Source: Phoronis australis (Eukaryota; Animalia; Phoronida). From it: a DNA stretch of 64,000 bases. How positions within the stretch are numbered: the stretch's first letter is position 1; each line of letters starts with the position of its first letter. The notes beneath the pieces were generated by a model. The model worked only from the letters and a program-made list of their open reading frames with translations, did no database searches and was not told the origin of the DNA. Below, in pieces: positions 2,107 through 35,300 of this stretch. Where the stretch lies: NCBI GenBank assembly GCA_002633005.1, contig NMRA01000367.1, forward strand, positions 336,762-400,761. The letters are read 5' to 3'. Position numbers and translations under genes: made by a program.

Positions 2107-2301
2107 CTCTTCCGAGCGCCTATCCAGAAGTAATTGATGGCCCCAGATTACAGTCAGTAGAGCGTGGTTTAACGGCAACTCTAGAGTGCAGAGTGAATGG
2201 AGTGCCACAGCCTGTTGTCTATTGGTTAAAGGACTTCAGACCTCTTGATGCAAAGTCAGACCCCAGGATAGAACTGTACAAAGTCGATAATAATCCCAAC
2301 T
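2107..2301 (+). CDS. Lar: Lar exon, Ig2 N-terminal part
   Basis: ttttag|CTCTTCCG...CCCAACT|gtgagt; [47 protein letters not shown]...[12 protein letters not shown]; phase 1/1. Confidence 0.93.
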
Positions 2302-5300
2302 GTGAGTTTTGCACTGTAGTTTGATCATATGGTGATTATTTAATGTTATATTTGTATTGAATTTATGCAAAAGTGTACATTTTAGAAGAATTTTCTAAGT
2401 ATTTGTGTTTTACCAGTTTTCACAGAAATTTGATGTCATAGCCGTTGTAAGTTGTGTTGATACGTATTACCTCCATGAACCGTTAACTCTCTTTGCACAA
2501 CTTCAAGGGCAGCTTCTGTGTGTTATCTCCTTTGTTGCCAGTAGCAACAAGTATCACTGTTGTTGCCTGTCCATACACTGTCATTATTCGTGTCACTGAT
2601 CAACATGTCCACTGATCAACATGTCACTGATCAACATGTCCACTGAAATAGAGCATCTCCAATTTTGTTCCGTTTTTTTTGATCAACTCAAGAGAAGTCT
2701 GTCTACGCACTCTAATTAAAGTATGTGGAAAGCAATATACACCAATCACAGAGCTTAAACAGGGTGTTCTGTGTCATCTGATTTTGTGATTCTCCAGAGA
2801 GGACATACTGTGCAATTTGATGTTGACTTTCTCCAGAGGGGATATGTTGTGTCATCTGATATTGAAGTTCTCCAGAGAAGATGTGCTGTGTCGTGTGATA
2901 TTGAGGTTCTCCAGAGAACATATGATGTCATCTGTCATTGAGGTTCTCCAGAGGTGATATACTGTGTCATGTGATATTGAGGTTCCTCCCTGGAGAAGAT
3001 ATGCTGTGTTATCTGTTATTGAGGTTCTCCCGGAGAAGATATGCTGTGTTATCTGATATTGAGGTTCTCCAGAGAGGATATGCTGTGTTATCTGATATTG
3101 AGGTTCTCCAGAGAGGATATGCTGTGTTATCTGATATTGAGGTTCTCCAGAGAGGACATGCTGTGTTATCTGATATTCAGGTTCTCCAGAGAGGACTTGC
3201 TGTGTTATCTAATATTCAGGTTCTCCAGAGAGGACATGCTGTGTTATCTAATATTCAGGTTCTCCAGAGCACTACACTAGTGATTGAAGGGAGCATCAAC
3301 TGTAGTCTATCCTTCAAGTTACAGCAAGAGTCCATTGTTTGTACCAACAGGATATTATGATCATAGTCTCATAGTGGCTTTATTGGTTGACTGGGTCATA
3401 CCTACTCCTAAACCTGGTCTGACCAACATGACATGAGATGCCTGTTCACTTTCTCCATCTGTGGCTAGTGATTGCTTGTAATTACCGTATAACAACTGTT
3501 GGTAATCTACTGATGATGACAGGGCCCAACTGTTTGTAATCATCCATTGATAGCCTGTGTGAGAAGCTTGTAACAAGAATAGCAGTCATTGACATGACAA
3601 GTATGCTCCTGTGTTCAACTGAATATTATGTTTTTGGAAACAGCAACTAATAGTCATAATTCCTGCAGGCTTCTGTAGTCATCATCATTCGCTCATTTCT
3701 AAACTGGCCAACACACTGGCAAGTTATAGTTTAATTGTGTTGACACATGAGATGAGTAAATTGATTAAACCAATGGATCCTGTTCTCTACTCCATGTCCA
3801 TCATGCACTCTGACAATGAAAAGTGCAGCTTGTAGTTAATCTTCCTTATCTCTGTGGTTACTTGGTCGAATTAGTTAGAAACACAACACATTCCAGAGAA
3901 TATGAACAAGTAGGTTGAAAATTAGCAAACGACTTCTGTGTCGAAAATGATCTTCTGTCGAAAATGAAAAATGATTGACTTCTGTGTCGAAAATGATCGT
4001 TGTAAATCACTCAACCGTGTCCAGTAAGTATCTTGAGGCGGTGTTGGACAACAACGCTGCATGGTGGGGGTTATGTGAGCCTCCAAAGGTCACCTATTTG
4101 CAGAATTTTTTGTTTTTTAATTAACAAGATGTCAATTAATACAACTGCATTTTAATTAATGTAGATGATGTTCAAGTAGCATTGTTGTTCCTTCTGGCAT
4201 AGTTTGGAGCATGCCAATATATCTGTAAGCATGATGACCAATAGGTGAGCATCTTCACAGGTCAAAAGTACAACCAGTATCTTGGCTTCAGGCACACTGT
4301 AATCCATTTTTGGTCATGTTTCCAACCAGGCATCAATGCTTCAGTGCAGTATAAAAACTCAACAGGTTTTCAATTCCTCCACAATGAATGCATTATTTAG
4401 TTTTCTCACATTTCCATCTTTGATATTTTGCTTAAAGGTATTTGTATTTTACTGCATATTTTACTGTGGAGATCACATTTTGACCTAGTTTAGGCTTTGT
4501 GCAGCTTACTTGAACTATGGCAACCATGGCAACCATGGAAGATTTTAAATGATTGATTAACAAACTTGAAACTCATCTCTAGCTGTATAAATGTTTTAAC
4601 CAATTTTTTAAAAACATTTGAAATACTTTATCCAATTTGAAGAGTTATTAGAGTGATTACACATGCTAGCTCTTTAGAATGGACCAAGGAAAAAATGGAT
4701 GATGCAATGAAAACTCAACCTCATTAGTGTAAGACTCCTTGTGATCTAACTGGTTGTCAAGAGCATCAACATGTGTCCTGCTGAGGACCACCTACTTGTA
4801 ATCTGTTAGGAATAAGTTGTAACCCAGTTTATAACTGTAAGTGGCCCATTATAGCAGTTTGAAAGGCTGTGCATGGTCCTTGTATTAAACATATCTTCAT
4901 AAGCTTTCAATAAGTGCAGACTTTCAAAATACTGAGCACCTGTTCCCCCCAATAGTCCTTCCCAGTTACAGCAGATTTTAACCCTGACATCAGAAGTGTG
5001 TTCAACAGAGTGAGCGCCCGCTAGCGTGTACTCGCGAATACAAGGAACAGCTCCTGAACAGCTGTGAGTGCTCACTGNAACATTGATTCAACTTGTGTTA
5101 TCCACTGAACATTGATTCAACTTGTGTTATCCACTGAACATTGATTCAACTTGTGTTATCCACTGAACATTGATTCAACTTGTGTTATCCACTGAACATT
5201 GATTCAACTTGTGTTATCCACTGAACATTGATTCAACTTGTGTTATCCACTGAACATTGATTCAACTTGTGTTATCCACTGAACATTGATTCAACTTGTG

Positions 5301-8300
5301 TTATCCACTGAACATTGATTCAACTTGTGTTATCCACTGAACATTGATTCAACTTGTGTTATCCACTGAACATTGATTCAACTTGTGTTATCCACTGAAC
5401 ATTGATTCAACTTGTGTTATCCACTGAACATTGATTCAACTTGTGTTATCCACTGAACATTGATTCAACTTGTGTTATCCACTGAACATTGATTCAACTT
5501 GTGTTATCCACTGAACATTGATTCAACTTGTGTTATCCACTGAACATTGATTCAACTTGTGTTATCCACTGAACATTGATTCAACTTGTGTTATCCACTG
5601 AACATTGATTCAACTTGTGTTATCCACTGAACATTGATTCAACTTGTGTTATCCACTGAACATTGATTCAACTTGTGTTATCCACTGAACATTGATTCAA
5701 CTTGTGTTATCCACTGAACATTGATTCAACTTGTGTTATCCTACTGTTTGACATCTACTGATATGACGCCAGTTCTTGTCAGTTGTATGGCGACCCATAA
5801 AAATGTGGCCAGCATCATATCAGACAAGTGATTGTGTAAAAATACTACAACATGGTATTGTCAAGCTGTCACTGTGCAGTAGGAACATTACTACAGTGAA
5901 CCAATTCATGGATTTATTTCACTTTTCATTAGACTGACTCTGCATCTAATTTTAATACAAATTGGTATTAGTCTGATATGCTAGTCATAAATTGATATTA
6001 GTCTGATATGCTAGTCATAAATTGATATTAGTTTGATGCTAGTTTTAACATTGACAATCCTAGTATGTTCCATGATTTGTTAACTAAAACACAATCACAT
6101 GAAGCAGATTGACGTATAGTGCTTAGCTCCGATCTATGTAAATTATTTAGAGCCCTATTCAGTTAGTTTTATTTGTACAATTAATGTTTTATGTTTGGGC
6201 TGGTTCATTTCAATTCTTTCTCAACATTTGCACTCGCTATCTGAAAGTCAAGGATGAAAAAAAAATCAATTAGGAAATTCTGATTTTCCTTAAAGTCCAG
6301 TAGTCCCGTCCTGATGGAACTCTGGTTATAATTACTGTAATTAATATTTCAGGGGACTTTGATTACAACTGTCTTCCATAATCTCTTCCATCCATGGAGA
6401 ATGGGATTGTTGAGGCATTATAGTGGATGGAAGTCGTACTATAAATGTCTGAAGGTGACCCCCCCCCCCTTTACCTTGCCCCTCTTACCCCCTCATCACA
6501 TGTAATGGATGTACAACAGGTCTGACCCTCATAGTTATCCCTGCTCTACTGTCATGGCCATGTCAACCACCTCTCCAACTGCTTTGTCACAGTTGGTACA
6601 CAGTTTTACCACAACATTTATCTGTCACTGACTATGGTACACTTTGAATGGCTTCACAGGTTTGTTTGGCAAGTTTATAAACACTTCCTCCATCTATTCT
6701 GTGTGAAAAGCTTGCAGGCAGATTTATTGATCAGATAAACCTGGCCTATGTAAACAGTCCACATCTGATACCTGTCACCCCTTAATCTATGTACCTGTGG
6801 TGCAGTCCAGCTCAATCCACATGCAAAAGCAGTATTGTTTATTTGATCAAAGGGGTGGCCACTGTGTTATTTGATATATTTGAATTGTATGCACATTGAA
6901 TAGTCATTCAATTGATCAGACAAAGGCACACAAAAGGTGTATGGAAACAGGAGCTCTTTTTAAAAAGTCAAATTGTGCAGTGCAGTGTGCAATGACAGGT
7001 TAAAAATTGTTGAATTATCACACATGGAGGCTGTTTGTAATAGAATGTTCAGAGAGTTGGGCTGGCAAGTCAACTTGTTCTGGTAGAACCATGGATGATT
7101 TATGATGTGGTTTTTGACATGCTTACTCCAGGATTGGCTGAAAACTGTCAGGGCAGTTTAAACTCACTTTCTCTTCTGTCTGTCAAGTAGAAGTGGAAGC
7201 CAGGTCTCATGTGAAGACAACATTAACAATACAGTGAGGATCAACAGTAGAATTGATCACAAGTCAAGAAGAGATAGTGAAGTGTGGCCATTGGTGGTGT
7301 AACCCTGCCTAGTATAGACTCTACTAATACTCATCAACAGGACACAGTAGGAACAGATCATCTTTGAAAGGCCACCAGTGTGTATTGGAGGCTGAGTGGC
7401 TGGGCTTAGTGTTAAGTAGCTGGAGGTACTACTGTCAGTCAACTTCATGTCTCTTCATTCATCCACAGCTACAGTGATGTTGTTGGTTTAACAGATAACT
7501 GTTTGTAGGCTTTGACCATCAATTGTAGTAGGTCTGGTGGTGTGAACAAGGAGTGTACTTCATTATATAGACTGGTGCTTGGCAGACAGGAATACACTGG
7601 AACTGTGGGAATACACTGGTCTTTGGCAGTGGAACTGTGGGGATTTAGTACACAGCTTACTGTTTGATGAAAGATAAGAAAAATTAACAACTGAGGCTAC
7701 ATCACTTGAAGAGTACATACAGTAGATTTAAAGCAACCGTTTATTAGTAAAGGATTACTTTGAAGGAGGTGACAGGTTGGTTGGTGTTAAAAAGTACAAG
7801 GAATGAAGCGGTGAAGCTGAGACTGGATTAGGTTACATATTTTGAAGGTTGTGGATACCTGGAGTATTAATCACTGAGATGTGGATGATGGATAACTATG
7901 TAATATACTTGCTGTTGGCTGTACTGGGATTAACTGTTCATGGAGGCTTTTCTCAAGAAACAAGTAAGTGTATACTTTGAATATGTGTATTGTTACAGTG
8001 CATCGACTGGAGATCGATAACTCTAAAGAGTCAGATCAAGCTCAGTATGAGTGTGTGGCGGAGAATTCTGCAGGACTGGCTTACTCTCTAGCGGCACAGT
8101 TGTATATCCGAGGTAAGTTTCACCTCATCTTGTTTTTTACAGGTTCCTACCCTGCAAACACTCTCAGCAGCCGATTACTTCCTGTTACCATTGTCGCTTG
8201 GCTTGTCCCATTGTCTTGTTGACTGTTTGTATGGTCTACTTGTATGTCTTGTGCAAATGTGTTGCATCTGGCCTCGCCTGTTGCATGCGCCATCTTGTGG

Positions 8301-11300
8301 CAGATGCTTGTCGTGACCTGCGTGCTTCTCTGTATGAAGGAGTGAAATTAATGCCCCCTCTGTAACAACTGTTAAGCATCTTGTCCCTGCATCGTGTCAC
8401 TTGCCCCTTCTCGGTGTCCCTTCGCACTGATGTGTCCACCCTTATGCCTTGTTTTGCATTTCTCCTCTTACCTGTGGTAAAATTTCACTATAGAACTGAG
8501 AAGTAATTTTTCATTTTTTATGAAAAATGATTAGCACAAAATGGATGTGTTTTTAAGTATTTGAGTTTAATAATTTGACTAGCACTGAACAACAGTTTGG
8601 GATAATTGTGAGTTCTCAATAATGTTAGAAGTCATGGGAAAATGGAAAAAAAATATGATTTTATAATTTACTTTTGTCCAAATTTAGTGAAATTTTACTG
8701 AAGTGTTAACCTAATAACAATTAATCCCTGCCGCTTCCTTCTTGAATGTTTTTGTAAAGTCACTGGCTTCTTACTGTTCTGGAAGAAGTTGCTTTTTTGT
8801 TTCTCCCCTGAATTGTTCTTTGTTGTATTGCCAAAAGATATTGCACACTGTCGACATTGTGATGTTTCTCATCTCTTTTCCTCTATGGTTGTTTCATCTC
8901 CATTACTTGCTACATTAGTCCTTGGGAGCATCGACCGTATCTTTTGTTGATACTGGGAATAGAAAATGAGCCATTTCAATAATCCACCTATATTTCTGTT
9001 GCGACTCATCCAACCTTTGAAATCAATAGCATAATCATTTCAATTTGAATATCAATATTTGATGGATATAAAAGTGAATTAGTTTTCCTTGAATTTGTGA
9101 AAATTTTATATTGATAATTTCAAGAAATTAATCATCAAGAAATTAATTTGCCCGATTTAAAAATGTTACACGACAGCTTTTTTGTAAGCAGCCATTTTAT
9201 AACACGAGCTTCCGAAAAGACATTCATTGTAATAAATTGGGTTACTGCTAATACTGTCTCCTCTTTATTTTATTGAACTACCATTATGTTCATCTCTATC
9301 TTACAAGTTGTGCAATGTGCATCTCTCATTCAAAATGGCTGCCACACCTCGGCATACCTCTGGTTGGCTGGGCTCTTATCATGTTACCAACTATTTCTGG
9401 GAATTGGCACACAACTTTCTTATGTTTCTCATGCACTGTCTTAAACATTTTCTCTAGATCTCTCTCTTTCTCTCTCTATGTCACACACTTTACCCACTTA
9501 AAATATCCTGATTGTGATGGTCACAGATATTCAGTTTAAAGATTGTGTCTTTATGCCTCATATTATTAAAAAATATTTAAGAATTGTCATTTGGTCTGCC
9601 ACGTCTACAAATTTATTAATATAAGTCGGACGACTGTAAGTCGTGTTTAATACTTCCATATATTATTTGTACTAATGAACTGTTCATTGCACGTATACAT
9701 ATATTGCCCTCTATCTCATTTGAGTTTCATTAACCCAAACGTGGGTGCAGTGCAGTCCCTCATTATTTGACTGTTCACCTCTCTGCTATGTAACATCTCA
9801 GAAGTCCTCTCTCCCAACACATTACTGACATTATCTTACATTGTAACACTAATTAGCACTATTATTGTAACTCTAACTAGCACTATAAACTCCAGTGTTG
9901 GTGACAACAAACAGTGCTTGGGCTCCACTCACAACCAATAACACAACTACAATAAAGATTCTCTGGCTTGGGACAATCTTTATAACTTGAGGTCATGATG
10001 TTCAAGACGAATTTGAATTTTCTTGAAGATTGGTACATGAGTGACTTGCGTTAAAAGTATTTCTCAAATATGTCTTAGTTCATAAAATTGTCAAAATGGC
10101 CACTGATGCCACTTGTGTCCCCATACTGTGTGACATCGACTTGAATGCTCCTTTGTCATTAATTGATAGTCTTGAAAATTTGGATAACCAGTATTGACTA
10201 TTTCTAAAATTCGGTGACCAAAATATTTAATTCCCCCCATTCCAAACTGGAGAATTTTTACTGTACACAGCATTTGGTGTAGCCTGATGAGGCCAATTAT
10301 AAATATTGTCCCGTTGTGTTACTGCTTTTAGTGGTGGATATGGCTCTGGTATTTCCCTGGGGTGGGCAGGGCAGCCAAGTGTTGCAGGTGATGGTATAAT
10401 GGGGCTCTTATTACCTTGAGCTGGGTTGCATCAGGCAGTATAGTGCTTCTGGTAAATAATATGATGGGGCTAATGTTACGGGGGACTGGTTAGGACATCG
10501 TACTCCTTGTAAGTTACGAGAACAGGGCTGCATTCTGTAGATCTAAGACAATAGCTTGCACTTGCAGTGAAACATCTGTGAAAGTTATATCCCATAATTT
10601 ATGAATTCTATCCCATGATTCAACATTCCAACCTCACCGACCAATCACTTTCATGGCCACCATTTGCTAGGTTATACTCTTGCCAGTTTGGTCTTGACTA
10701 TACTTGTGAAACATATTTTTCTTGTGTGATTTGTGCGGTCTTACTTTATTAACAAAAAATTTTAAGTCTACAGAATGCTCCTGGGTAATCATTTAGTGCC
10801 GGCATACTTTAGCACGTTGACATTGTTGCAATGTTCAGGTGCACTAAGCTGTCTGTAACTGTGCTTGGTGGTTGGTACACTCATGACTGGTAGTTGGGTT
10901 GCTTGTCACCAATACTGGAGTTATCTCCCCCTGTTCCCCAAGGCTTAGTTGGATTAATATGTTTTTATCTCCCCTGAAGATCTCGGCAAGACTGGTAAGA
11001 AGGAAGCACCTGACTTGTTTTCTTTTTATACTGATTGAAGTCATTGTGTCACTGTTTTCGTATAGTTTAATCCACTCGCATGTTGTGAGGTTCTGGCCCA
11101 CTCACCCACCCTACCCACAATCCTCTGTCACTAATTCCCGCATTACGTGTGTTGTTCTTAAGTAGAAACGAGTTTCACACACAAGTGGTGTCCCAAGGTA
11201 CAACTTCAAGCACACATTCATGGTCTACCCTTTATTATGTCATTCAGCATGTTTTGTCAGTCATGCACTAGATATTTCCCCTGTTCAAAATACTAACCAA

Positions 11301-14300
11301 ATGAGGTTTGAATTATATAAAAATGTCTCATTAGTTGTCTCAGTAAGGCCACTAATTTCCTGATGACAGACGTGGGCTTTCTACCAATTGTCTGTGTCTT
11401 TACCATGTGTTAACAAATCCAGCCCTGCTTTGATTACCCTCTTACCAAATGAATGTGCCACTGATTCATGTCTTCTGATAACACCTGATCTTGTGAACAC
11501 TCATTTTTACTTAAAAACAGTTGCTTGCCATAGTGTGCCCATAGTTTCCTCTGTATAGTGAGAAACTCTGGGTTAGAGCTTGGCACAGGTGGGATATTGC
11601 ACACACCGAAGAATCGTATCAAAATATTGAAGAGAGGGAGTGTTGTGGAAGAGTGTGCGTGTGTGTGTGTGTGTGTGCAGTATCTCTGACCTGCACTTTA
11701 TCGGGTGCATGCTCATTAACCACATTTCATTTATAATTCCACCATTCTCTCCCACTATTTACAAAGATGAACTACAGTTCCTAGCATCAGAAGGTAGGCC
11801 TGTATTACTACAGCCAGGTTACTGTGTCCGTCTGTGTGTCTGTCTGTCTGTCTGTCACGTGACCTCTCCTAATTTGTTGTGGAATGTTGTTCACCTTTCT
11901 CACTGTCCCTGCGGGTGGCACCACCAACTGGTGGGGACTGCTCGTCTGATATCACTATTCACTAGCAGGTAAGAGTCATGCCAGAAAGTCACACAAAACT
12001 CTCACAGAACCATTACTTCCATTCTTTTGTCAAAAAACAAGTTTTTATTTAGAGCACCTTAAAAGTGGTCTTAAAAGTGTTTCTTTGTTAAAATAGATGT
12101 GATTTTTGGGCTTGTAAATAACATTGTGTATTTATTGGGACCAAGCTCTTCCGCACCCAATGTATCATTTCTAAACTGAGTAGGGGACAAGCTAAGACCA
12201 ATTTTATATTGGTAAATGACCTAAATCTTAAGTTATTTTCTTGACAGAAAGCGTGGGTTTAACACCGCTTTATTTTATCACAAAGAGTGTTTTTCTATCC
12301 ATACAAATCGTGATTGAAGGTCAATGCTTGCTCCAATATTCATCATTGTCAGTAATGACCTTAATTTAATTCTGCCTGGTAAATGTCAACCTACCATCAA
12401 AAGAATGATAATGATTTCCCAAAATTGACTGGTTTGAGTTAAATCTGCAACATCACATCTGATCGATGCTGGTTATTTTCCTCTGCTTCTCACATGGTTG
12501 TGTGCTAGTAGTGATGGACATCTGGCTTGTCCTGCCTTATAGTCTGGATCATTCAAACACTCAACACTATGTTTGTGTACGCCTCTACACACACGCAGTT
12601 ATTATCAAAGTCAAGTTTGTTTTGTCAAATCCAGCAGAAGAAGGAATTTATGAATTTCGCTTGGCCACAGTGTAATCTACAGGGAACTGATGCAAAGCTA
12701 AAATGTCGGCCATTTGGTTAATAACTGATTAAAAAGTCACCTCAATGACAAAGTGTCTTAATGAGGCTTATCTGTTGGTTGACATTTCAACTTTAAAAAA
12801 AGAGAATTAAATATTGAAGTCTACGCTATGTATGTGTGTGTTTGAATGAGTTCCAGTTGTCACATTTATCCGATATTATGCCTCCAGAACAGTGCAATTA
12901 GTGATATTTGATAAATGGTTATTCTCACTTTCAGCTGGTGTGCTAGACATGTCTAAACAGTTTAACACATTATGATTTGTAGATGGGACACCTAGTGTTT
13001 AATGTTATTGGCAGATATGAATGCCTGCAACATTACACAAATTTGCTGCTCACTTATTTAATGTTTGAAATTTGTTTTACTGGAGTTTTAGTACTTCTCA
13101 ATATTGTATGTACAAAATGGGTTAATTTCCTGGCTAGTTGGTCTGTCCACACTTTCACTAGCAAGCATTTGTGTTTAGCAATATTGACCAATGAAAATGG
13201 AGGTGAAGAAGGTCACAGTGATTAGCTGGCTGAAGATAACTGCAGTGTAATAATGAACCATCTGATACTCATAAAGATGTCTGTTCAGTGCAAGAAATCT
13301 AGTGCAAACTGAAGCCATTACTTGTGCCTGGCTGGTGATTGTTTTTATCAAAGACATCAGATTACTACTGTAGGCTCTATGTGTTCTCTTGTTATATTTC
13401 TGTAAACACTGGATCTCTGTATGTTAATCTGGAATATGGTATCTGCATGGCTGGACACCATGGGAGATGATAATGTTACTTACAGTGTCTTGAGATGTTG
13501 TCCGTATGTGCAAGAAACTCCTCAAAATCAAGATCATTTGAGTTTTGACAAGATATGGCCACACATTACCAAACAAAGCACGTGATCATACTTTTTTGCG
13601 AGCGCCATGCATCTATTGAATGTACCCTGGCAAGTGCACGACAACCAACCGTTTCTCAATGTTTTCATTCTTGTCCAAATGTCTCAACTTCAGACCACAT
13701 CTCAACTCGGTTACATTTTGTTGCATATTTTCAACTTGCAGTCATTTCAACAATTTCTTCCCTTAACTGCTCTCAGTTAATGCCTGAGTAACTAATTAGC
13801 TGACCATATGGCCAACCATGGATAATTTTTTCTTAAACTAATTAGTTGTTGGTTGGTACAGAGTCTACAGACCCTGCATTAATAGTTTTAGCAGACGCTC
13901 TGGTCTCCAGTTTCACTTGAGCAGGAAGACTAAATAACTGGTTTTACCACAAGTCCCATTCCAATTTCAAAACAAACATTAACAAATGGCAGACGACATT
14001 TTTCTTTATTTCCTTTGTTACAAATTACCAAGTTACTGCATCACGTCAGCACGTTATTTTTGACAGCAATTATTTCCTTTTATTAAATTAGATTTCATTC
14101 AACTTACATCTTGACATTATTTGTTGAAGCAGTACATTATGTAGGTGGAGTCACTTCCTGTTTAGAGATGTACCATATACAGAGAACAACATCATAGGGC
14201 TCAAGTGTTTCTCCCTCAGAAACCATGTCAAACTGATTGAAACTTGCCAAATATTCAGTTTGTGTTGAGATGTGGCCTGCTCGAGGGAGGGGGGTGGGTG

Positions 14301-17300
14301 GTAGTACCTCCGAAGGGGGCTTGTGTCACTCCTTGAGTCCTGATGTGCTTCGCGTGTTTGTTCAGTCACTGCTTTAAGTCTGACCTTGACACTGCCTGAG
14401 GTGTACCCCAGCAATGTTCATATTACCAACATCCTTGTGTTAATGAGACTATTACTGACTAAATGTTATTTCATTGTAAATTGATAGTTCTATAGTTCAT
14501 TAACCATTCCTTTCATTTGTTGTTATCTATGTTTACAATGATATCTCTATATTTACAGGCTTCAGCTAGATACCTAACTTCTTACACAACTTAAAATGAT
14601 TAATAATGATTAATACTTTTTCATTATCCCAACATGTTGCATTTCAGGTTGTGCTTGACTTCTATTATTTATGTTGACACTGCGTCCATTATTGTATTCA
14701 ATCTGGTATTATTTGTGTTTACACTGTGTTCATTATTGTATTCAATCTGGTATTATTTGTGTTTACACTGTGTTCATTATTGTATTCAATCTGGTATTAT
14801 TTGTGTTTACACTGTGTTCATTATTGTATTCAATCCGGTATTACTTATGTTGGGACTGCATTTATTTTTGAATTCAGCAATAGTCATATTTAAGGTGCCC
14901 AATTTGATTCAGGTATTCAGTGAAGAACACTAGTCAAAATGTGGCATGTTATATCCAACTATAAACTTGTATTCAATCTGGTTATTACAGTTTCTATGCT
15001 GTTCCACTTGACTGCTGGTATACCATAATCACTACTGAACTCAAGATACAAAATACAATTATAAAATCAAGATAGCAAACAGTTATAGACTGTGTGACAC
15101 TACATCTTTTTTCAACCTTTGTTTAACTTTGGCCTGTGTTGTGGCTGGAGGAGTGTTGAAGTGATTTTGAACATGTTATGGATTTGAAGGGTAAAATGTT
15201 CCCATTTCAGCCACTGCTAATGGATGACTGCGGTAGAAACCTGGAGTGCATTACTAGAAGCTGTCTTTGATAAAACAAAGAAATAAAATTGCCATATCGT
15301 GTACTGATTATATAGACAGNTTACACTGTGTTCATTATTGTATTCAATCTGGTATTATTTGTGTTTACACTGTGTTCATTATTGTATTCAATCTGGTATT
15401 ATTTGTGTTTACACTGTGTTCATTATTGTATTCAATCTGGTATTATTTGTGTTTACACTGTGTTCATTATTGTATTCAATCTGGTATTATTTGTGTTTAC
15501 ACTGTGTTCATTATTGTATTCAATCTGGTATTATTTGTGTTTACACTGTGTTCATTATTGTATTCAATCTGGTATTATTTGTGTTTACACTGTGTTCATT
15601 ATTGTATTCAATCTGGTATTATTTGTGTTTACACTGTGTTCATTATTGTATTCAATGAGGTATTACTTATGTTGGGACTGCATTTATTTTTGAATTCAGC
15701 AATAGTCATATTTAAGGTGCCCAATTTGATTCAGTTATTCAGTGAAGAACACTAGTCAAAATGTGGCATATTATATCCAACTATAAACTTGTATTCAATC
15801 TGGTTATTACAGTTTCTATGCTGTTCTACTTGACTGCTGGTATACCATAATCACTACTGAACTCAAGATACAAAATACAATTATAAAATCAAGATAGCAA
15901 ACAGTTACAGACTGTGTGACACTACATCTTTTTTCAACCTTTGTTTAACTTTGGCCTGTGTTGTGGCTAGAGGAGTGTTGAAGTGATTTTGAACATGTTA
16001 TGGATTTGAAGAGTAAAATGTTCCCATTTCAGCCACTGCTAATGGATGACTGCGGTGGAAACCTGGAGTGCATTACTAGAAGCTGTCTTTGATAAAACAA
16101 AGAAATAAAATTGCCATATCGTGTACTGATTATACAGACAGATTCCATTACCATATTCCCAAGCCACTATCAGTATTTGCTCATTCATGTCACAGGGCCT
16201 ACATCATCACCTAGTAAAGTCAATTATGGAAGTTGTTATAAGTCTGCTGTGAGCCCTGTAGATGTTACTGGAGGACAACAGAGGCCCTCTGTGTAGCCCT
16301 GACTCACAGCCATATTCTCCCACACTCTCCTGTGTTGTGAATATAGCCCACACCTCACACAGGCATCATTTACTCTGCACTTGATTCATTTCCCAGAATC
16401 TGCTGCACTCCTAATGAGTATTTTAAAGCCATCAACAGAGGATTGAGTACACTAGTATACACACCTGTCCTCTCTGGTACAACTCACTCACTACTTTTAA
16501 GTTAAGTAGTATACAACCAGTTGGTTTGTTTACATTTACTGAAAGGTATTGATTTAAGGAAACTTCTTTTAACAATTGTTTTTATCACCACGCCAGGTTG
16601 TTGAAAATTATGACGCGCGCACACACATACACATTTCACACCTATGGTAAAACCGACAACTACGTGGGGAATACCAACTTGGCAAGCTAGTGACTTGTAC
16701 AATCACAGCAGGAGCACTTGGTGCCTTGAGACAGTTTAATTTAGTTTGCTGGGGTCTAGAAGAACACATAGAGATATTGATTATGGAAAACTAGTGCATG
16801 TGGAAATATGTTGACAAAGGGTCTGTGTACCATCAATATAGTTGTGTATTATGTCAACATTAAGCAGTGGGCTTATTAACTAGATATTGCATTTGATATT
16901 GATGATTGTGGTTTGAAGTGTGTACTTTTGTTAGCCCACATTATCAGTTGAACAGTGAGAAGTCTTAACAAATACATAATATACACTGTCACATTTATAA
17001 TGTGGAAATAAAATAAAACCTTGTATTCTTATAATTTCTATTATTGCTGCATTTGAATGTAAACACACACACCATTGAAAACTGCACTTAATTCAGTCTG
17101 TCCATAACATTATTCTAAAATATAGAAATGATTGAATAATTCTCTTCATGTAGACCATGATTACACGTGTAATGAATTCTGTATTCCACATTTTGAACTC
17201 TTAATTCTTTGCTAAATTTCAAGTTACTTACTTAAGCAAGTTAAGTTGCCTCAGGTGCCAGCCTTGATATTGAGTGACTCTAACAATTGAGTGGCTTAAT

Positions 17301-20300
17301 TCATTCATTAGACATTCATTAGTTTTCCCTGGACGCTCATTAAGTACACTAATGGACCTTAGTATTACATCTCAAGAGACAAAACAGTTCAAGAACAAGC
17401 GGTGCTTGCATATCACCAATCTTTTTTCAATTCATTGATGTTTTTTGAGGTAGTATTATCCTTAAGCTGTCTGTCATATTTTTTCTTGATATGGGCCATT
17501 AAATATTTTCTATATTTTCTTTATTTAGTTGTATTGTAGAGACAACCTCCTTTGGCATAAATCAGTTCCTATTTGATTTAGTCAATCATAGATCTTCATA
17601 TTCCTGCAGCAGTCAAGGGGTAACAAACCACTTTGGTTTATACCCGTGTCCTATTGACTTCATTTTTTTCTTTTTCAGGTACAAAATATGTTCGGTTATT
17701 GTCGTATTTTGTAATTGTCTACTTTATTCTGTTGTATTTTACATTTTGTGTTGCATCTTGCTTGTTTGAAATTTAGTTTGTTGTGTTTGTTGAATCTTGT
17801 TTGCTACGCTTCTATGTTTTTGATTGGTTGAAATTTGACAGTCGCTGTGATTGTTTATTTGGAAAGCTTCCTCCCTTGAGTAATTTGTAGTGGTAAAGTA
17901 GTAAAGTTGATAGGTAATGGTCATGTTTAATGATGTCTCTTGTGCATAATCCAATCACTGCTAGTGTTACATATAACCCCAGCATGACCTCCCTGCCAGT
18001 GCACTGATTGGTTGGTTTGTTTTCTTTTTGCACGTGCAGTCCGTCGAGTGCCTCCTCATTTCTCCATCGCTCCTGAGAACGTGGACGTAATGCCAGGAGG
18101 TGATGTCAACATTTCCTGCGTTGCTGTGGGCTCCCCAATGCCTACAGTTCGCTGGCGTGTTGGAGGTACAGACATTGACCAAGGCAGTTTGACTCCACCT
18201 GTTGGCCGTAACATCCTGAAGCTACGTAATGTACAACAGAGCAGAAACTACACCTGTATAGCTGTGTCAGAGTTAGGTCGAGTGGAGTCGGTGGCCTTAG
18301 TACAGGTCAAAGGTCAGTCAATCCTATGTACTAACATTTCCCTTTTGTTTGTAGCTGAGTGGATATGTTATTAAACTAATGTGTTTTAATGAGTGCATAC
18401 ATATATAAAGAGGCACAAGGTAATTATAAGTCAATTCCGGAAAATTCAGGTTACGTTACAGTTATCTGGATGTAGCAGCTTCTTGTATTCACTTCCACGT
18501 GGAGATTGGTTTATACATTAATGTGGTTTATATATCAATGCACTTGATATTTTGAATGTTGTCTTTAAACAATGTAAATATTATGTATAAAGCATTTATT
18601 GTCGTTGTTTTGTAAGCTTTTTCTGTTTGCATGTGTCTGTGTCTGATAATGCTGTTTCAAAGTATGTTTTCCGTAAACACAGTATGCCATGTTGGAACTG
18701 TGCATCATCAGCGCCTCCTGTGGGTAAAATGAGTTATTGTTTCGGTACTCTCCAGTCCCTGTTTAATGTGTTGCATGATTATCAGTCAAAGCGGAGCTCA
18801 TTGTCAGTGATCTCGGCTTGGTTGTTAAGCATGGCTTCTAAACGGATCTGTCAGTGCTTGGATTGTTAGCATTGTATAGATAGCATGATATACAATATGA
18901 CAAGTACAAGATGTTGTATAGATAGCATGATATACAATATGACAAGTACAAGATGTTGTATGGACAGAGGACTAGGGTTGTCATCAGTAGAGCATTGAAT
19001 ACACATTATCAGTTTGTGTGTGTGTTTGTGTGTGCGTGTGTGTGTGCGTGTGTGCATGTTTGTAGTGACTGTACAACATGTATGGACTATACAGTAAAAC
19101 TAACCAAATGTAAACTCGCACTCATTGGAATGCCAGTGCTTCAATGTTCTGCAACACATCCTGCACCCACTGATTAGCAATTTTTCTGTTGGATGAGAGA
19201 ATGAACCTCTACTGCCACCTTGTGGTGGTCTGCTCAAGTATTACTACAGGTCTAATGCTACAGCCTGGTTAATGGCATGGTTTGGATTGGTTTCGATACA
19301 CTGTTGGTAATCTCTAAGTGAATGAAGCTAGACTGAACTAAAACTAGCATGAAACTGAAGGCAGCTGATGGTTGATGAGAACTAATATTATAATGATGAT
19401 ATTGTGCGTGAAGAGTTGATAGAAAGCATGGCTAAAGCTTGCCTGAATGGAGTGTGTTTCGCATGCAAACTAGTTTACCTATACATTATACGGTAGTTAA
19501 CCTATACATTATACATTATAGTTAACCTTGATACTCTAAAAGTAAGATCTCACCTTGTCGACTAAACATGGCAAACAGAAAACGTGTACATTGTAGTTAA
19601 CCTTGATATTCTGCAAGTAAGGTATCACATTGTGAACTAAATACAGTACACAGACAACATATTCACTGTAGTTAACTGTTAACCTCAATACACTATGGTT
19701 AACCTTATATTAAAGAAGGACTTGTCTGTTTAGCCAAATATGTCGCACAGACAACATATTCACTGTAGTTAACCTTGATGCCCTAATAAAAGTGAAATAT
19801 CTCCATGTCAACAAAATGTGGTAGATCCATAAGTTAGTGCACACTGTAGTTAACCTTGATACTGTAGGAGTAAGGCTTACCTGCTCAACTAATGGGGGTA
19901 CACTTAGGGGTCCAGTCTCATAGCTGAACTGAAATTGATCATTGATCAAGTGCCTTCTGTCATGACTAATTACTGCAATACAATAACTCACAACACGTCA
20001 TGACTAATTACTGCAATACAATAACTCACAACAGGTCATGACTAATTACTGCAATACAATAACTCACAACACTTCATGACTAATTACTGCAATACAATAA
20101 CTCACAACACTTCATGACTAATTACTGCAGTACAATAANNNNNNNNNNNNNNNNNNNNNNNNNNNNNNNNNNNNNNNNNNNNNNNNNNNNNNNNNNNNNN
20201 NNNNNNNNNNNNNNNNNNNNNNNNNNNNNNNNNNNNNNNNNNNNNNNNNNNNNNNNNNNNNNNNNNNNNNNNNNNNNNNNNNNNNNNNNNNNNNNNNNNN

Positions 20301-23300
20301 NNNNNNNNNNNNNNNNNNNNNNNNNNNNNNNNNNNNNNNNNNNNNNNNNNNNNNNNNNNNNNNNNNNNNNNNNNNNNNNNNNNNNNNNNNNNNNNNNNNN
20401 NNNNNNNNNNNNNNNNNNNNNNNNNNNNNNNNNNNNNNNNNNNNNNNNNNNNNNNNNNNNNNNNNNNNNNNNNNNNNNNNNNNNNNNNNNNNNNNNNNNN
20501 NNNNNNNNNNNNNNNNNNNNNNNNNNNNNNNNNNNNNNNNNNNNNNNNNNNNNNNNNNNNNNNNNNNNNNNNNNNNNNNNNNNNNNNNNNNNNNNNNNNN
20601 NNNNNNNNNNNNNNNNNNNNNNNNNNNNNNNNNNNNNNNNNNNNNNNNNNNNNNNNNNNNNNNNNNNNNNNNNNNNNNNNNNNNNNNNNNNNNNNNNNNN
20701 NNNNNNNNNNNNNNNNNNNNNNNNNNNNNNNNNNNNNNNNNNNNNNNNNNNNNNNNNNNNNNNNNATGATGTGTGGTTTATATTTTGACAACAGGTGTCA
20801 CTGCTGCTCCATTTTAGACGCACATAGAAAAGCATGAAACAGGCGAAAACTCAAACATTTTAAATGGGGATATTCTTGCGGCACATCATATTATTAAAGT
20901 AATGACATTTATTTTGCTTTTGGTATTTTTAAAAAAAGATGAAGTACATGAAATTACAGCTCTGCAATACCAGTTTGGAGTTAAGCAAGGTCCATGTCCC
21001 TATATAAAGTACAGAATGACAGTGGCATGTGAATTTATTGAAAGCAGACATTCTGGCAACCAACCACGTGCTAATGATTGACAGGTCTACCAAGTAGTTT
21101 GAAAATAGTTTGAATATTGCAACATTTTAAATACTTTGTATATCTCTTTCCCAGTTGAAAGGGCCAACTTCCCAATTTGATTAAGTGGGAGTTTTAGTAA
21201 TCTTTCAATGTGGGTGTCCAAACTGGAGAAATTCTGATTGACAGGGCGTCCAAATGATACATTGGGCGTCCTTGTCAGGGCGTCTACATTAGTGCTAGGG
21301 CGTCCAAATGGACGCCCAGGACATACGCTGCATGAAGGCCTGCCGACTGTCTATACGCATATACGGTAGTCATAACGTGACTCGCACCTTACACACATAC
21401 TGTAGTTATAGTGTGACCGTCGCACTGTACACGCATACTGTAGTCATAGTGTTATACACACATGTTGTAGTAATAGTGTGACTCTCAATCTACACACATA
21501 CTGTAGTCACAGTTTGACTGTCTCACTATACACACATACTATAGTCACAGTGTGACTGTCTCACTATACACACATACTATAGTCACAGTGTGACTGTCTC
21601 ACTATACACACGTACTATAGTCATAGTGTGACCGTCGCACCATGCACACATACTGCAGTCAAAAGTCTGGTTATGGCTTCTTGCAACTTATTGTCTTATG
21701 AGCTGTTTGTGATCTGGTGCCTGTATCACTGGCCTTGAGAAGGTATCAAATGCCTGTCTTGAGTTCCGACATGTTTCAAGAAGCATAGCGCTATTACTGG
21801 CCTTGACGAGGTATGAGATGGCAGCCTTGAGTTTGAGATACACAAAGCATGAGAAACACTTGAGGTGAATAGGGTTAGGTATGAAATTAGAAAAACAGAA
21901 CTGACCTAGTTGCCATCCTTATACAGTGTGGAATGCTTTCAGCTATTGCTTTCTAACTAGCACTGCAGACACACTAGAGCTTGTTACTAACTCTAATAGG
22001 AAGCATTAACCACTAAGCGTTGATGTTCCTTTGTTAAAGATCCACAGAAAGCAGCAACACTTGACTTGCTAATGGACATTTTGTTGTTTCAGCTTCTGTG
22101 CTATGTTGATTGTTTACAACTGTTTCCTAGCACTCCTGGTCAACATGGGGTCACTGATTGCTGTAGAGAGGGTCAAGGTCACTTCATACGTTAATGTCTG
22201 CTCTGTGTCAGTGTCCATTTTATTGCTTTCCTCATGTGTCTGTCCTGTTTTTCACGCCATGTTAATGTCGCTGTCACTTGTTATCTCCGTAGCCTTCCCA
22301 CCAGCCCCAGTTGACTTGGCTACGTCAGACATTACTGATTCGTCCATCAAACTGAGCTGGTTACCTGGCAACAGTGATCCCGTCCTCTTCTACACGGTCT
22401 ACTATAAGAAAAAGCATGATCCATCGCAGACCACTGAGTCGATAGACCGAGTGAGGTCTACGCAGTACACTATAACTGGCCTACAACCGTATACCCAATA
22501 TGTGTTCAAAGTTAAAGCTTCCAATAACATTGGCCCAGGTATAGCCAGTGCACCTCTCGATGGACTGACTGGGGAGAGGGGTTAGTATGGTTGCATCGTG
22601 CATGTGCACGCGTCCGTCTCACCCATAACTAACTGCCGGATCAGTTCGAGAGAACACTCATGTTGATATAGTTTTCTGTTACAACGTGTGTGCGTGACAC
22701 CTCCTACCCCCTTGTGCACTTTTCATGTGTGAACGCGACGGCTCGCTCGCAGATTTCGTAGATGCTATTACATCACCACTCGTGCTTTTCACTGCTTATC
22801 CACTGATCATCTTGTGTCTTCCTTATGTTTCTGTTGTGTGTCAGTGTGCTTATACCTAACCCTTGCTGCAGACAGTTTAGAACATAACTTCTAGGCATAC
22901 ACCAAACCAACTAGTTCCAATCGACACAAATAAATAATTCCATGATCTTCTCTATTACACAGCTGATGGCAGTGAAGGTAATGCTTTAATGGCAAACCCA
23001 TAGGAATGGTTGTCTGACTTAAGTTTTAGACTGTATAATTGTTGTTCATTTTCAAATTGCACCACAGGTCATAAGTTGATAGACTCCTTTTGTTCTCATT
23101 CTGCCTGGACTAGTCATGTATGTCGGCTGAGAACGTTCCTAATTTGGTCATGGCTTCAATTGTTGAACTAAGTTTTGCACCCCTATGTGGGACTGCATGA
23201 TGAGAGTGAAAAGTCACGTTGTCCAGCGTGCTGATTGGTCAACACTTTATGCCGCGTTCTGGAGCATGAACGTTGGTTGTTAGAGGTTGTCTTCATTTCA

Positions 23301-32300: not shown

Positions 32301-35300
32301 ACCATATCATTCTATTCCATACTAACTAATATTCACCAGTTTCAGGGCATACACTTGTAAGCAAAGTTCAAGTAATTCAAAATAAAGCTGCCAGGACTAT
32401 CCTGAGTTCTAGAATTAGGGACACTCGGGTCAACGACTTGTACTCCAAGCTTGACTTTATGAATTAAGTAAAACAATGAAATATCTCTCTCTCTCTCTCT
32501 GCTTGTTGCGTACAGACGTGTCAATGGCTTGGCTCCAACATTTCTCAGCCACAAATTCAGTTGCAGTCAGGCTCTATATACTCTACCAGTTGCAGTCAGG
32601 CTCTATACTCTACCAGTTGCAGTCAGGCTCTGTACTCTACCAGTTTTTCCGCTATTGGTAATGTTTCATTTAAGAAAATTAAAACTGAGACTGGCTAAAG
32701 ATGTTTTATTTATGTTGATGCTGCAATATGAAACTCTCTTAGCCCAGAAATGAAACGGTCCAATTCTATTAATGTTTTCATATTTAATATTAAAAAGTGA
32801 CAGTAATTTACCTGTATCTGTCTTAATTATGTCATTGTCATTACTATAAATACTCTCATTATTTAGTGTCACCTGTTTATTTTATTTCATGTCTCTTGGT
32901 CTAGTTTCATCTCCCTTCGTCATTTATTATCTAACTTGTCAACCTGTTTTAATTGTATCTTTGTTATTTGTATTTAATCATTGTTTTACTACTTTATTGT
33001 ATTATTGTACTGTTTTATATTGTGTTGTTGAGGACACTCTTGGAAAGCAGGGTAGACCCTGAAGTGAGGGCCCTCTTGGAAAGCAGGCTTGACCCTGAAG
33101 AGGCCATCCTAATTTTACATTATTATAATATAGAGTGCCATTGTGCACTGGGTTAGTCAAGGCAATAGTTGAGTTAGTGAATTGTTTTTTTTGGGGTACA
33201 AGCTGTGTTTTGTGAGTCTAGCTTCATGTTTAATAGTCAGTGAGCTGCGTTTGTGAGTGCAGGCAGGCAGGACTTTGTGAGTCAGTGAACTGAGTTTATT
33301 GGGTCTATTAACCATGTTTACAAGTGAGGTACTGTGACGAGTGGGGCAGCCATGTTGTATCCTCCCCTGACTGGTATGTTCTGCCGTAACTTGTGTGTGT
33401 TCTAGTGATTGTAATAGTAGTAGTTTTATGATAGAGGTTAGCTATATGTTACCATGTTTTGTTCTAACTGCTGTACTCATATATATATATATATACCATA
33501 TCTGTTTGATCTTGTCCTTTGTTTTGCTAGAAAATGAGACAATCGCTCGTTTTGCAAACAGTAAGTAGGATCAGAAAGATAATATTTCCATTTTTATTCT
33601 GATCTACTTTGTATTGGCGAATGAAGCATTCTTAGTCTGCAGTGTGGCATGTTTGTATCTATGCCTTTGGTGCATGACATTATTGGTAGGGTTCATTCTT
33701 GCTTGATGTATTGTGACGTTGGCGCAAGTGCTGCCCTCTACCTGGTTGACATTGATCTACTTTCTGAACCTGCGATCACTGCGCCATCCATTGCCGGTTG
33801 CCAGCACTCAATCGTATGCTGAACAGTTCAAGCGCACAACACATTTCTGAAAGTCACATTATTTAGGAAAGTCTGCTTTTTTCAACATTTCAGCCTTTTC
33901 TATCTGTTTTGACTAGATGTGTTGCAAGTTGTTGTCAAGCTATTGTCAGTACTGATACAACAAGTTCTGACTAAGTGATTTGCTGAAAAGCTTTCATTTG
34001 TTTCACTCTGATTAGTGTGCTATAGAGCCACTTTGTTGTGTCACTATGTCGCCTACGGCCACACACTGACTACACTTAAGGACATGTTCAGTGCCATCTG
34101 AGGTGCTCTTTTGCAGGAAGTGACACAGCGTTGTATCTGGCTTTATGCACACTGAATATATAATGTATTTTGTCTTTGTTAACAAACACAATAGCCATGA
34201 TATCAAAGTTAGATTTCAACATTTATTTTTGCTGAGATACAGAATTGGTTGACTTAAAAGTTTTTGAAGACCAAGCTTCATATCTTAATTTGTCTGCCTT
34301 GCCTGAAATAACATCTTCCTGAAACTTAAGTGGGACTATTCACTCAGTGTGCATGAATGGTGAATCTGGAGTGAATGAGTTGAGCAGATTCACTGTGCTC
34401 ACTTTGAAACTGACACATGTAACAGTGTGTGGTGCATCTTGTATCTATGGCAGACAGAAGAAAACTCATTCCCACTTAAATGGATTTATGGGATGTTGAC
34501 ATGTCAGTATAAAGTTGTAGCAAAGAGTATTTCAAGGATGACCTATTTATACTGCTTATCAAGGATGACCTATTTATACTGCTTATCAAGGATGACCTAT
34601 TTATACTGCTTATTAAACATGTTCCTTGACACCTGATCGTCAACTTCTTTGCGATAACTCAGATATCTGGTCATGTGCTGACACAATCTTGTGCTTTGGG
34701 AAGAATAGTCTTGGGGTATGTTCTCCATGAATTAGTGGTTGCCTAGTTACCAGTGATTGACCATAGGACCAGGTCACATGGTTGTGGTCACTCTACCCTG
34801 ACATTGACTTCATTGCTTGGTATTTTTCTCTCATCAATTCCGTGCAGACATGAAGGGTCGAAGTAAGTGCCCCTGTTGTTACTCTACCTTGTCCTTCGTT
34901 CCATTGTTGTAGTAGATCACCTGACAGTCACCTCTGACTCACTCAGACCACCATGTGCTAGACACTCTACCTGATACACTGTTTCATTCTAAAATAAAGG
35001 TGGAGAAACAATGAAACTTTTGGTTTGGGCATTTTGAAATGAAAAAACATTCATTTGTTCCGCGACTTATAAATATCAAGAATATGTCGCACATTATCGA
35101 CAAGTCTGTACGTTTAGTCAAATATCTGCAAACCAATAGATTCTAACATAATAAAAATTTACATTTTGTGAAAGTATAAAGCCTTACTTTTACCAATCTG
35201 CCATGTATTGGATGACATGTCCATGTCTAATTTTACTACAATACAACATTTATTGGATGACGTGTCTATTTCTTTTTACTACAATTCAACATTTATTGAG

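What the first reader, a model, noticed from the sequence alone, without database searches (positions are those of the whole stretch)
8494..11968. Three candidate microexons at the vertebrate meB position: a modular Ig2-Ig3 linker in an invertebrate LAR
Seen: the intron between ...LYIR and VRRVPP holds three frame-preserving AG/GT-bounded units, each after a long AG-free tract. They are 9 nt AACTGAGAA (8494-8502), 27 nt (11767-11793, DELQFLASE) and 3 nt CAG (11966-11968). No combination creates a stop. Known: in vertebrate PTPRD/PTPRS/PTPRF this junction (LYVR|VRRV) takes the 12-nt mini-exon B (ELRE), which controls binding to synaptic ligands such as Slitrks, IL1RAPL1/IL-1RAcP and SALMs. The 9-nt unit encodes E-L-R, and 9+3 nt together give LYIR-ELRT-VRRV, the same length as vertebrate LYVR-ELRE-VRRV. 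Inference: an ancestral or convergent meB split into modules, allowing linker insertions of 0, 1, 3, 4, 9, 10, 12 or 13 aa.
Basis: partly seen in the sequence, partly recalled or inferred. Interest (0 to 1): 0.85.

Follow-up and report, generated by a model that had tools for sequence, protein, structure and literature searches.

The report
Candidate hinge microexons in invertebrate LAR
Three tiny DNA segments in a nerve-cell adhesion receptor gene of an invertebrate look like optional mini-exons that would lengthen the same protein hinge that vertebrates tune at synapses, and scallop, ribbon-worm and annelid-like relatives carry their own inserts at that spot, but the RNA reads available for this animal show only the version without them, plus a separate shortened form of the receptor.

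Summary
The 9-, 27- and 3-nt AG/GT units lie in the phase-1 Ig2-Ig3 intron of a spiralian LAR gene after AG-free tracts of 115, 84 and 146 nt, and all 8 combinations stay open. They are the only such hits in the intron; shuffles give three in at most 0.7% of trials, with thresholds set after the fact. All three share CACTAT before the acceptor (chance 0.2%).

RNA does not confirm them. In 4 runs of unknown tissue, 23 reads and 1 contig skip all three; no listed group includes any; 6 partial reads were unlisted.

Relatives do use this position: a 9-nt cassette in a scallop model, 60 nt in a nemertean, and a conserved 39-nt cassette in an annelid-like paralog, all with unrelated peptides. Best reading: the hinge intron is a recurrent site of small-exon gain, and one or more units are rarely included, likely neural, cassettes. 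Ancestral meB and an 8-state code are unproven; the 3-nt unit may be a recursive splice site.

Shown instead: a signal-peptide-like exon joined straight to Ig3 (7 reads), and FN1-exon skipping.

The parts
2107..2301 (+). LAR exon, first half of Ig2 (phase-1 donor)
   Evidence: tblastn with homologs, I-set match, open model with the next exons
7879..7963 (+). Alternative exon, likely a first exon, encoding a signal-peptide-like 26-28 residues in frame with Ig3; the 5' end is not known; joined directly to 18040
   Evidence: 7 reads in run X2, agreement 1.0; donor GTAAGT at 7964, ATGs at 7879/7885/7888, hydrophobicity peak 3.2, only 35 nt to the next acceptor
7999..8112 (+). LAR exon, second half of Ig2, ending LYIR plus one base
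   Evidence: X1 contig covers exactly 7999-8112; loose ends at the Ig3 exon match its end
8377..8491 (+). 115-nt AG-free, pyrimidine-rich tract before the 9-nt unit, ending in CACTAT
8494..8502 (+). Candidate 9-nt microexon (would add E-L-R); inclusion not seen
   Evidence: 6 of 9 letters equal the start of fish meB in L076:426-437; not in reads
11681..11764 (+). 84-nt AG-free tract before the 27-nt unit, 6 YCAY motifs in 80 nt, CACTAT at 11753
11767..11793 (+). Candidate 27-nt microexon (would add D-E-L-Q-F-L-A-S-E); atypical AAG acceptor; inclusion not seen
11818..11963 (+). 146-nt AG-free tract before the 3-nt unit, CACTAT at 11953
11966..11968 (+). Candidate 3-nt microexon, or the acceptor of a recursive (zero-length) splice site with a strong donor right behind it
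   Evidence: donor 9.8 bits; one of 2 intronic YAG-GTRAG sites on the + strand and the only one behind a long AG-free tract; inclusion not seen
18040..18312 (+). LAR Ig3 exon
   Evidence: best PDB matches are PTP-delta and PTP-sigma Ig3; covered by all 4 runs with sharp edges
22293..22580 (+). First FNIII exon, alternatively spliced (included in X4, skipped in X1 and X3, mixed in X2)
   Evidence: loose ends behind 18312 located at 22293 and 28637; fn3 match

Best explanation
The intron between the Ig2 and Ig3 exons of this invertebrate LAR gene holds three microexon-like units, of which one or more (the 9-nt unit first) is likely a real but rarely included, probably neuron-restricted cassette that would lengthen the Ig2-Ig3 hinge, while the bulk RNA sampled skips all three. 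Shown: the anatomy, the frame preservation, skipping as the form seen in 4 runs, and cassettes at the same junction in three other spiralian lineages. Inferred: long AG-free tracts and weak splice sites keep the units silent by default and allow a tissue-restricted splicing factor to switch them on, as described for fly and mouse microexons; inclusion would free Ig3 from the Ig1-Ig2 unit and so change which surface partners the receptor binds, as meB does in PTP-delta. The peptides at this position differ between lineages, so the position is best read as a recurrent site of exon gain where length matters more than sequence, not as one inherited meB cut into modules.
For: Anatomy above chance. 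The shared hexamer CACTAT within 20 nt of all three acceptors was not used to pick them; random triples from 292 AG-free sites share any hexamer in 0.2% of 200,000 draws, and 0 of 27 exon acceptors carry it. The same kind of scan, run with a looser AG-free cut-off of 35 nt, recovers true meB in a fish locus, 12 nt behind a 173-nt AG-free tract (L076). Mizuhopecten yessoensis models show three states at this junction (2 skip, 1 with +3 aa, 2 with +10 aa of 5 rows with Ig3); Lineus longissimus 3 of 8 rows +20 aa; Haliotis rufescens 6 of 7 rows +8 aa. By codon phase the scallop 3-aa and nemertean 20-aa inserts cannot be extensions of either flanking exon (inference). An annelid-like paralog has a conserved 39-nt AG/GT cassette in 7 of 21 loci, 6 distinct sequences, with conservative residue changes. 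Long AG exclusion zones and weak splice sites mark regulated neural microexons (bioRxiv 10.1101/2021.02.24.432780); neural exons arise repeatedly at equivalent positions (bioRxiv 10.64898/2026.09.05.749416). meB works by length: GSSG or QLEQ replace it, 12 residues weaken binding (PMC4423211).
Against: No inclusion was seen: 9, 8 and 6 reads in X2, X3, X4 and the X1 contig join 8112 to 18040 directly with agreement 1.0; in X2 all 28 partial reads are accounted for and none carries a unit; 4 reads in X3 and 2 in X4 are unlisted. No joint was listed inside 7900-12300. The 95% upper bound on inclusion is 12% if the unlisted reads are not inclusions and 37% if all are. At least one in-frame hit arises by chance in about 30% of shuffles. 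No UGC lies within 25 nt of any of the three acceptors (nearest -39, -57, -27), although that motif marks eMIC targets. 447 of 476 stored proteins with a readable junction have no insert, and only 3 invertebrate species show one. Annelid-like paralogs A and B (13 and 15 representatives) show no exon-like conserved island. The abalone 8-aa insert could be a shifted donor and the scallop 10-aa insert a shifted acceptor (inference). No close relative's intron was available to test conservation of these very units.
Confidence: 0.55

Rival explanations
1. One reading: the 9-nt unit is the descendant of a bilaterian meB, and all three units combine freely into up to eight hinge lengths in neurons.
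For: E-L-R equals the first three residues of meB; 6 of 9 letters match fish meB and the mismatches at letters 2 and 6 are synonymous (L076); only 4 of 9,910 positions of this intron would read E-L-R and 19 would read [DE][LQ]R. Scallop inserts of 3 and 10 aa and the annelid-like insert of 13 aa equal three of the predicted lengths.
Against: No inclusion reads; no E-L-R-like unit in any invertebrate intron fetched; scallop, abalone, nemertean and annelid-like inserts have unrelated peptides; meB sequence is dispensable for binding in vitro, so long-term sequence conservation is not expected; fish PTPRF itself varies (DQRE, DLRE); the three neighbourhoods are not alike at DNA level.
Confidence: 0.15
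2. The 3-nt unit is not an exon but a recursive (ratchet) splice site: the long AG-free tract, CAG and the strong donor let the 10-kb intron be removed in two steps and leave no trace in the mRNA; the upstream TAG is an incidental tandem acceptor.
For: It matches the consensus (Y)nNCAG|GTAAGT at all but the last letter (PMC5126111); it has the strongest donor and longest tract of the three; it is one of 2 intronic YAG-GTRAG sites on the + strand; mature RNA shows only skipping.
Against: No joint from 8112 to 11969 was listed and intron depth shows no clear step in two libraries with intronic reads, at depth 0-16; the unit shares CACTAT with the other two.
Confidence: 0.3
3. All three are chance AG/GT pairs (pseudo-exons) in a T-rich, AG-poor intron and are never used to a meaningful level.
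For: Zero listed inclusion reads; weak donors and an AAG acceptor; the minus strand gives 4 hits, 2 in frame, under the same filter, against 7 and 4 on the plus strand; thresholds were chosen after the fact.
Against: Three in-frame hits in one intron in at most 0.7% of shuffles; shared hexamer 0.2%; E-L-R match; real cassettes at the same junction in relatives; the tissues of the runs are unknown and about a fifth of each read run was read.
Confidence: 0.27

Closest known systems
Mini-exon B (meB) of vertebrate PTPRD/PTPRS/PTPRF
   Same: Same gene family, same phase-1 intron directly before Ig3, frame-preserving, long AG-free tract (fish example L076); the 9-nt unit would give E-L-R, and 9+3 would give a 4-residue insert.
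   Different: meB is one 12-nt exon with proven inclusion and ligand effects; here there are three unproven units of 9, 27 and 3 nt, no inclusion reads, and no known ligands.
meA3 + meA6 of PTPRD
   Same: The known case of tandem microexons used singly or together at one LAR-family position (PMC12598525; PMC4423211).
   Different: meA lies in an Ig2 loop, not in the Ig2-Ig3 hinge; no candidate passed the same filter in the corresponding intron here (2302-7870).
Drosophila Lar microexons DmeEX0004913 (24 nt, eMIC-dependent, pan-neuronal) and DmeEX0004911 (9 nt, low inclusion)
   Same: Invertebrate LAR genes already have catalogued neural microexons (PMC8797185 Table S2).
   Different: Likely other positions: 8-aa inserts in bee and sawfly Lar map to the FN1-FN2 linker; I did not map the fly exon itself.
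Spiralian LAR isoform models with Ig2-Ig3 inserts (Mizuhopecten XP_021354134.1 and XP_021354126.1, Lineus XP_064626984.1, Haliotis XP_046366897.1)
   Same: Small in-frame inserts at the identical junction, alternating with a skipped form.
   Different: Unrelated peptides and lengths of 3, 10, 20 and 8 residues; these are automatic gene models whose read support I could not see.
C. elegans PTP-3A/PTP-3B long and short LAR isoforms
   Same: Long and short isoforms with separate regulation and function (PMC7281833); comparable to the exon ending at 7963 joined to Ig3.
   Different: The short form here would keep Ig3; mollusc short models start with a signal peptide at FN1 (7 rows). The domain content of PTP-3B was not in the passages read.

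Membership tests
LAR / type IIa receptor tyrosine phosphatase | Ig domains, FNIII repeats and tandem phosphatase domains in order, best matches in the family | tested here: met
   Ig1 lies outside the window or was not found, and the transmembrane exon was not placed
meB mini-exon | Lies in the intron directly between the Ig2-ending and Ig3 exons, phase 1 | tested here: met
   same split codon in homolog loci
meB mini-exon | A single 12-nt exon giving 4 residues of the ELRE type | tested here: not met
   no 12-nt unit passes the filter; the 9-nt unit gives 3 residues, and 4 residues need 9+3
meB mini-exon | Included in mRNA in a regulated way | tested here: inconclusive
   0 listed inclusion reads against 23 skipping reads and 1 contig; 6 reads unlisted; tissues unknown
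meB mini-exon | Controls binding to IL1RAP, Slitrk, SALM or neuroligin partners | not testable with these tools
   no genome held; needs binding assays
meB mini-exon | Common descent with vertebrate meB | tested here: inconclusive
   6 of 9 letters and E-L-R match, but no such unit in other invertebrate introns or proteins examined
eMIC/SRRM-type neural microexon | 3-27 nt, frame-preserving, long AG exclusion zone, weak splice sites | tested here: met
   features as listed
eMIC/SRRM-type neural microexon | UGC close to the acceptor | tested here: not met
   nearest TGC at -39, -57 and -27
eMIC/SRRM-type neural microexon | Neuron-enriched inclusion that depends on the eMIC domain | not testable with these tools
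   no tissue labels for X1-X4
Recursive splice site (3-nt unit) | Pyrimidine tract, YAG and a strong donor back to back in a long intron | tested here: met
Recursive splice site (3-nt unit) | Intermediate joints and saw-tooth depth in nascent RNA | tested here: inconclusive
   no joint listed, depth low and noisy

The most novel reading that the evidence does not exclude
The Ig2-Ig3 hinge code of synaptic LAR phosphatases predates vertebrates: this spiralian keeps an E-L-R microexon descended from a bilaterian meB and has added 27-nt and 3-nt modules under a shared CACTAT element, giving neurons up to eight hinge lengths, alongside a promoter switch that removes Ig1-Ig2 altogether.
Probability: 0.15. 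Interest if true: 0.8.

Novelty: new variant of a known kind. Interest (0 to 1): 0.5.

Why it matters
The meA/meB splice code is treated as a vertebrate device for choosing synaptic partners. My searches listed no paper describing a cassette at the meB position in an invertebrate, yet public models and contigs show such cassettes in a scallop, a nemertean and an annelid-like lineage. If the units here are real, hinge-length tuning of LAR has been kept or reinvented across spiralians without the vertebrate ligands being known there, which makes the origin of the code testable by one RT-PCR per species and points to undiscovered Ig2/Ig3 ligands. The read-supported exon ending at 7963 adds a likely receptor form without Ig1-Ig2.

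Tried and rejected
No whole genome is held for the window, so paralogs, ligands and splicing factors could not be searched.

The run search listed no holder on record as RNA; X1 is a guess and X2-X4 came by species label. The lay on 7900-12300 was swamped by a dispersed repeat at 10588-10650, with 61 loose-end rows not shown. The two flanking exons were laid in separate calls, so the joint tables could not show the junction; isoforms were read from loose ends at the Ig3 exon. The depth dip at the 9-nt unit is not used as evidence.

Tandem duplication of the three units: rejected, alignment scores lie within background. The exon ending at 7963 as a mutually exclusive partner of 7999-8112: unlikely, because it would replace half of Ig2 by a hydrophobic stretch and has no good in-frame acceptor (read). 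A matching signal-peptide exon in the 79 fetched loci: none of the invertebrate loci gave one in 149 kb scanned; 1 weak hit in a fish locus and 1 in the window intron at 12324-12378.

Fly Lar 24-nt exon as an insect meB: probably not, insect 8-aa inserts map to FN1-FN2. Fish inserts starting with Gly (GKKHAA, GKR, GKIS) look like donor read-through and were not counted as meB. Chelicerate, gastropod, cephalopod, chiton, mussel, oyster, clam and brachiopod rows seen show skipping only; at most 15 members per cluster were listed, so this is not absence. Small shared islands in annelid-like paralogs A and B lack exon edges. No close relative of the window's species was found in three protein searches; the tree leaves it unresolved among spiralians outside molluscs and annelids. 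The 2019 eMIC paper is not held; a term search in PMC12075705 gave no hits. No structure or complex was predicted.
Full report
Gene and position. The window holds most of a LAR/type IIa receptor phosphatase on the + strand, from the first half of Ig2 (2107-2301) to the stop near 63713. The Ig3 exon matches PTP-delta and PTP-sigma structures best; Ig, fn3 and phosphatase domains were confirmed; a nine-exon ectodomain model is stop-free. A tree of 31 rows places the protein on a long branch among spiralians, outside the mollusc and annelid groups and unresolved beside Lineus. No genome is held.

The observation. With a donor matrix from 30 donors of this gene they are the only units up to 30 nt with an AG-free tract of 80 nt or more and a donor of 5 bits or more in this intron; 8 other intron stretches give 3 hits, 1 in frame. 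Shuffles give about 0.35 in-frame hits, at least one in 27-33% and at least three in 0-0.7% of 300 shuffles per scheme; the minus strand gives 4 hits, 2 in frame. The thresholds were post hoc. A feature not used in the filter is CACTAT within 20 nt of all three acceptors: random triples share any hexamer in 0.2% of draws, and none of 27 exon acceptors has it. The neighbourhoods are not duplicates of each other. Against: weak donors for the 9- and 27-nt units, an AAG acceptor for the 27-nt unit, and no UGC close to any acceptor.

RNA. Four runs were listed, one as contigs and three as raw reads of the same species label, tissues unknown. On the Ig3 exon the loose ends upstream are the end of exon 7999-8112 in 9 (X2), 8 (X3) and 6 (X4) reads and in the X1 contig, agreement 1.0. 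Inclusion of the 27-nt unit would have lowered that agreement, and the other units would have made groups at other places (inference). In X2 all 28 partial reads are accounted for (9+7+12); 4 of 21 in X3 and 2 of 14 in X4 are unlisted. No joint was listed within 7900-12300. Upper bounds on inclusion are 12% or 37%, depending on the unlisted reads. So skipping dominates; rare or neuron-restricted inclusion is neither shown nor excluded.

Two things the reads do show. Seven X2 reads join an exon ending at 7963 directly to 18040. Its frame encodes 26-28 residues with a hydrophobic core, continues into Ig3, and its donor is only 35 nt from the next acceptor; it is likely an alternative first exon giving a receptor without Ig1-Ig2. 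Seven mollusc models start with a signal peptide at FN1, and two Lineus models start just before Ig3. Second, the first FNIII exon (22293-22580) is included in X4, skipped in X1 and X3 and mixed in X2; abalone and chiton models show the same two forms.

Relatives. Of 560 stored proteins, 476 had a readable junction; 447 have no insert and 29 have one, 12 of them from three invertebrate species. Mizuhopecten yessoensis shows skip, +3 aa and +10 aa; Lineus longissimus skip and +20 aa; Haliotis rufescens skip and +8 aa. From codon phase, the 3-aa and 20-aa inserts must be separate exons, whereas the 8-aa and 10-aa inserts could be shifted splice sites (inference). These are automatic models; I did not see their read support. 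A metagenome scan kept the best 80 of 236 matching stretches; 26 of the 80 hold the whole intron. In an annelid-like paralog, 7 of 21 loci (6 distinct sequences) carry a conserved 39-nt AG/GT cassette 2.3-4.3 kb before Ig3; 12 of the other 14 do not reach 2.3 kb upstream, and 2 reach 3.1-3.5 kb without a match. Its variable columns are 6, 2 and 6 at codon positions 1, 2 and 3, which is modest evidence of coding constraint. Two other paralog groups show no exon-like island. A fish locus returned meB itself, 12 nt behind a 173-nt AG-free tract, the only E-L-R-like unit in the fetched introns.

Relation to meB. meB is Glu-Leu-Arg-Glu and acts as an adjustable linker; unrelated tetrapeptides replace it, and 12 residues reduce affinity (PMC4423211, passages; PMC12598525, passages). 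The 9-nt unit matches fish meB at 6 of 9 letters with synonymous differences at letters 2 and 6, and only 4 of 9,910 intron positions would read E-L-R. That is the best argument for ancestry. Against it, no other invertebrate examined has such a unit and the other inserts are unrelated in sequence. Recurrent gain of neural exons at equivalent positions is described (bioRxiv 10.64898/2026.09.05.749416, passages; its supplements were not seen; PMC8797185, passages). Fly Lar has catalogued microexons of 24 and 9 nt (PMC8797185 Table S2 rows), likely at other linkers. The features of regulated microexons are from the preprint of the same work (passages). Long and short LAR isoforms with distinct roles are known in C. 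elegans (PMC7281833, passages). PMC12626420 (passages) confirms that meA and meB have been deleted in zebrafish with mild effects. Searches (listings only, apart from the papers named) showed no report of a meB-position cassette in an invertebrate; most subscription papers are not in the library.

Mechanism. Most likely the units are silent by default because of weak splice sites, and one or more is switched on in a small cell population, probably neurons, by a factor binding the long AG-free tract; CACTAT and the YCAY clusters (2, 6 and 5 in 80 nt against a median of 2) are candidate sites. Inclusion would lengthen the hinge and reposition Ig3. Every step after the anatomy is inferred. The 3-nt unit has a specific rival: it fits the recursive splice-site consensus (PMC5126111, passages), which would leave no trace in mRNA.

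Verdict. Real and unusual anatomy, in a position that other spiralians use, but unconfirmed in RNA. My odds: at least one unit is a true cassette about 0.65-0.7; all three real and combinatorial about 0.25; descent from an ancestral meB together with the full code about 0.15. New variant of a known kind; interest 0.5.

Noticed in passing
window 7879-7963: Read-supported exon with a signal-peptide-like frame joined straight to the Ig3 exon (7 reads, run X2 only); likely an alternative promoter giving LAR without Ig1-Ig2.
   Followed up: partly
window 22293-22580: First FNIII exon is included or skipped depending on the run; the same two forms occur in abalone and chiton models.
   Followed up: partly
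L058:5466-5504, L078:4646-4684, L023:3607-3645, L069:952-990, L067:1620-1658, L026:98-136: Conserved 39-nt in-frame cassette in the Ig2-Ig3 intron of one annelid-like LAR paralog; not present in any protein row stored.
   Followed up: partly
L078:6786-7057 and matching stretches in L058, L023, L067, L048: A second conserved island in the same intron, containing an 18-nt AG/GT-bounded stretch in some loci with non-synonymous differences; regulatory element or further cassette, unresolved.
   Followed up: no
L010, L014, L016, L020, L034, L039, L043, L046, L053, L055 (donor of the Ig2-ending exon): This intron starts with GC instead of GT in 10 loci, most of them of annelid-like paralog B; a weak upstream donor at the meB intron.
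   Followed up: no
window 33531-33560 and 34848-34862: Two further in-frame small-exon candidates (30 and 15 nt, AG-free 87 and 73 nt, donors 7.5 and 9.4 bits) in the FN2-FN3 linker intron; both keep the frame open.
   Followed up: no
window 14619-16140: About 820 bases duplicated around a single N, with a 44-nt tandem array; probably an assembly artefact.
   Followed up: no
window 10588-10650: Short dispersed repeat, abundant in RNA on both strands.
   Followed up: no
P0001, P0188, P0481: Fish, amphioxus and nemertean proteins built from repeated LAR-like Ig2-Ig3 blocks without phosphatase domains in their Pfam lists; P0001 starts with a signal peptide directly before Ig3.
   Followed up: no
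window 50151-54800: The transmembrane exon was not placed by my searches; a 25-nt unit at 52551-52575 has a 137-nt AG-free tract and a strong donor but is out of frame.
   Followed up: no
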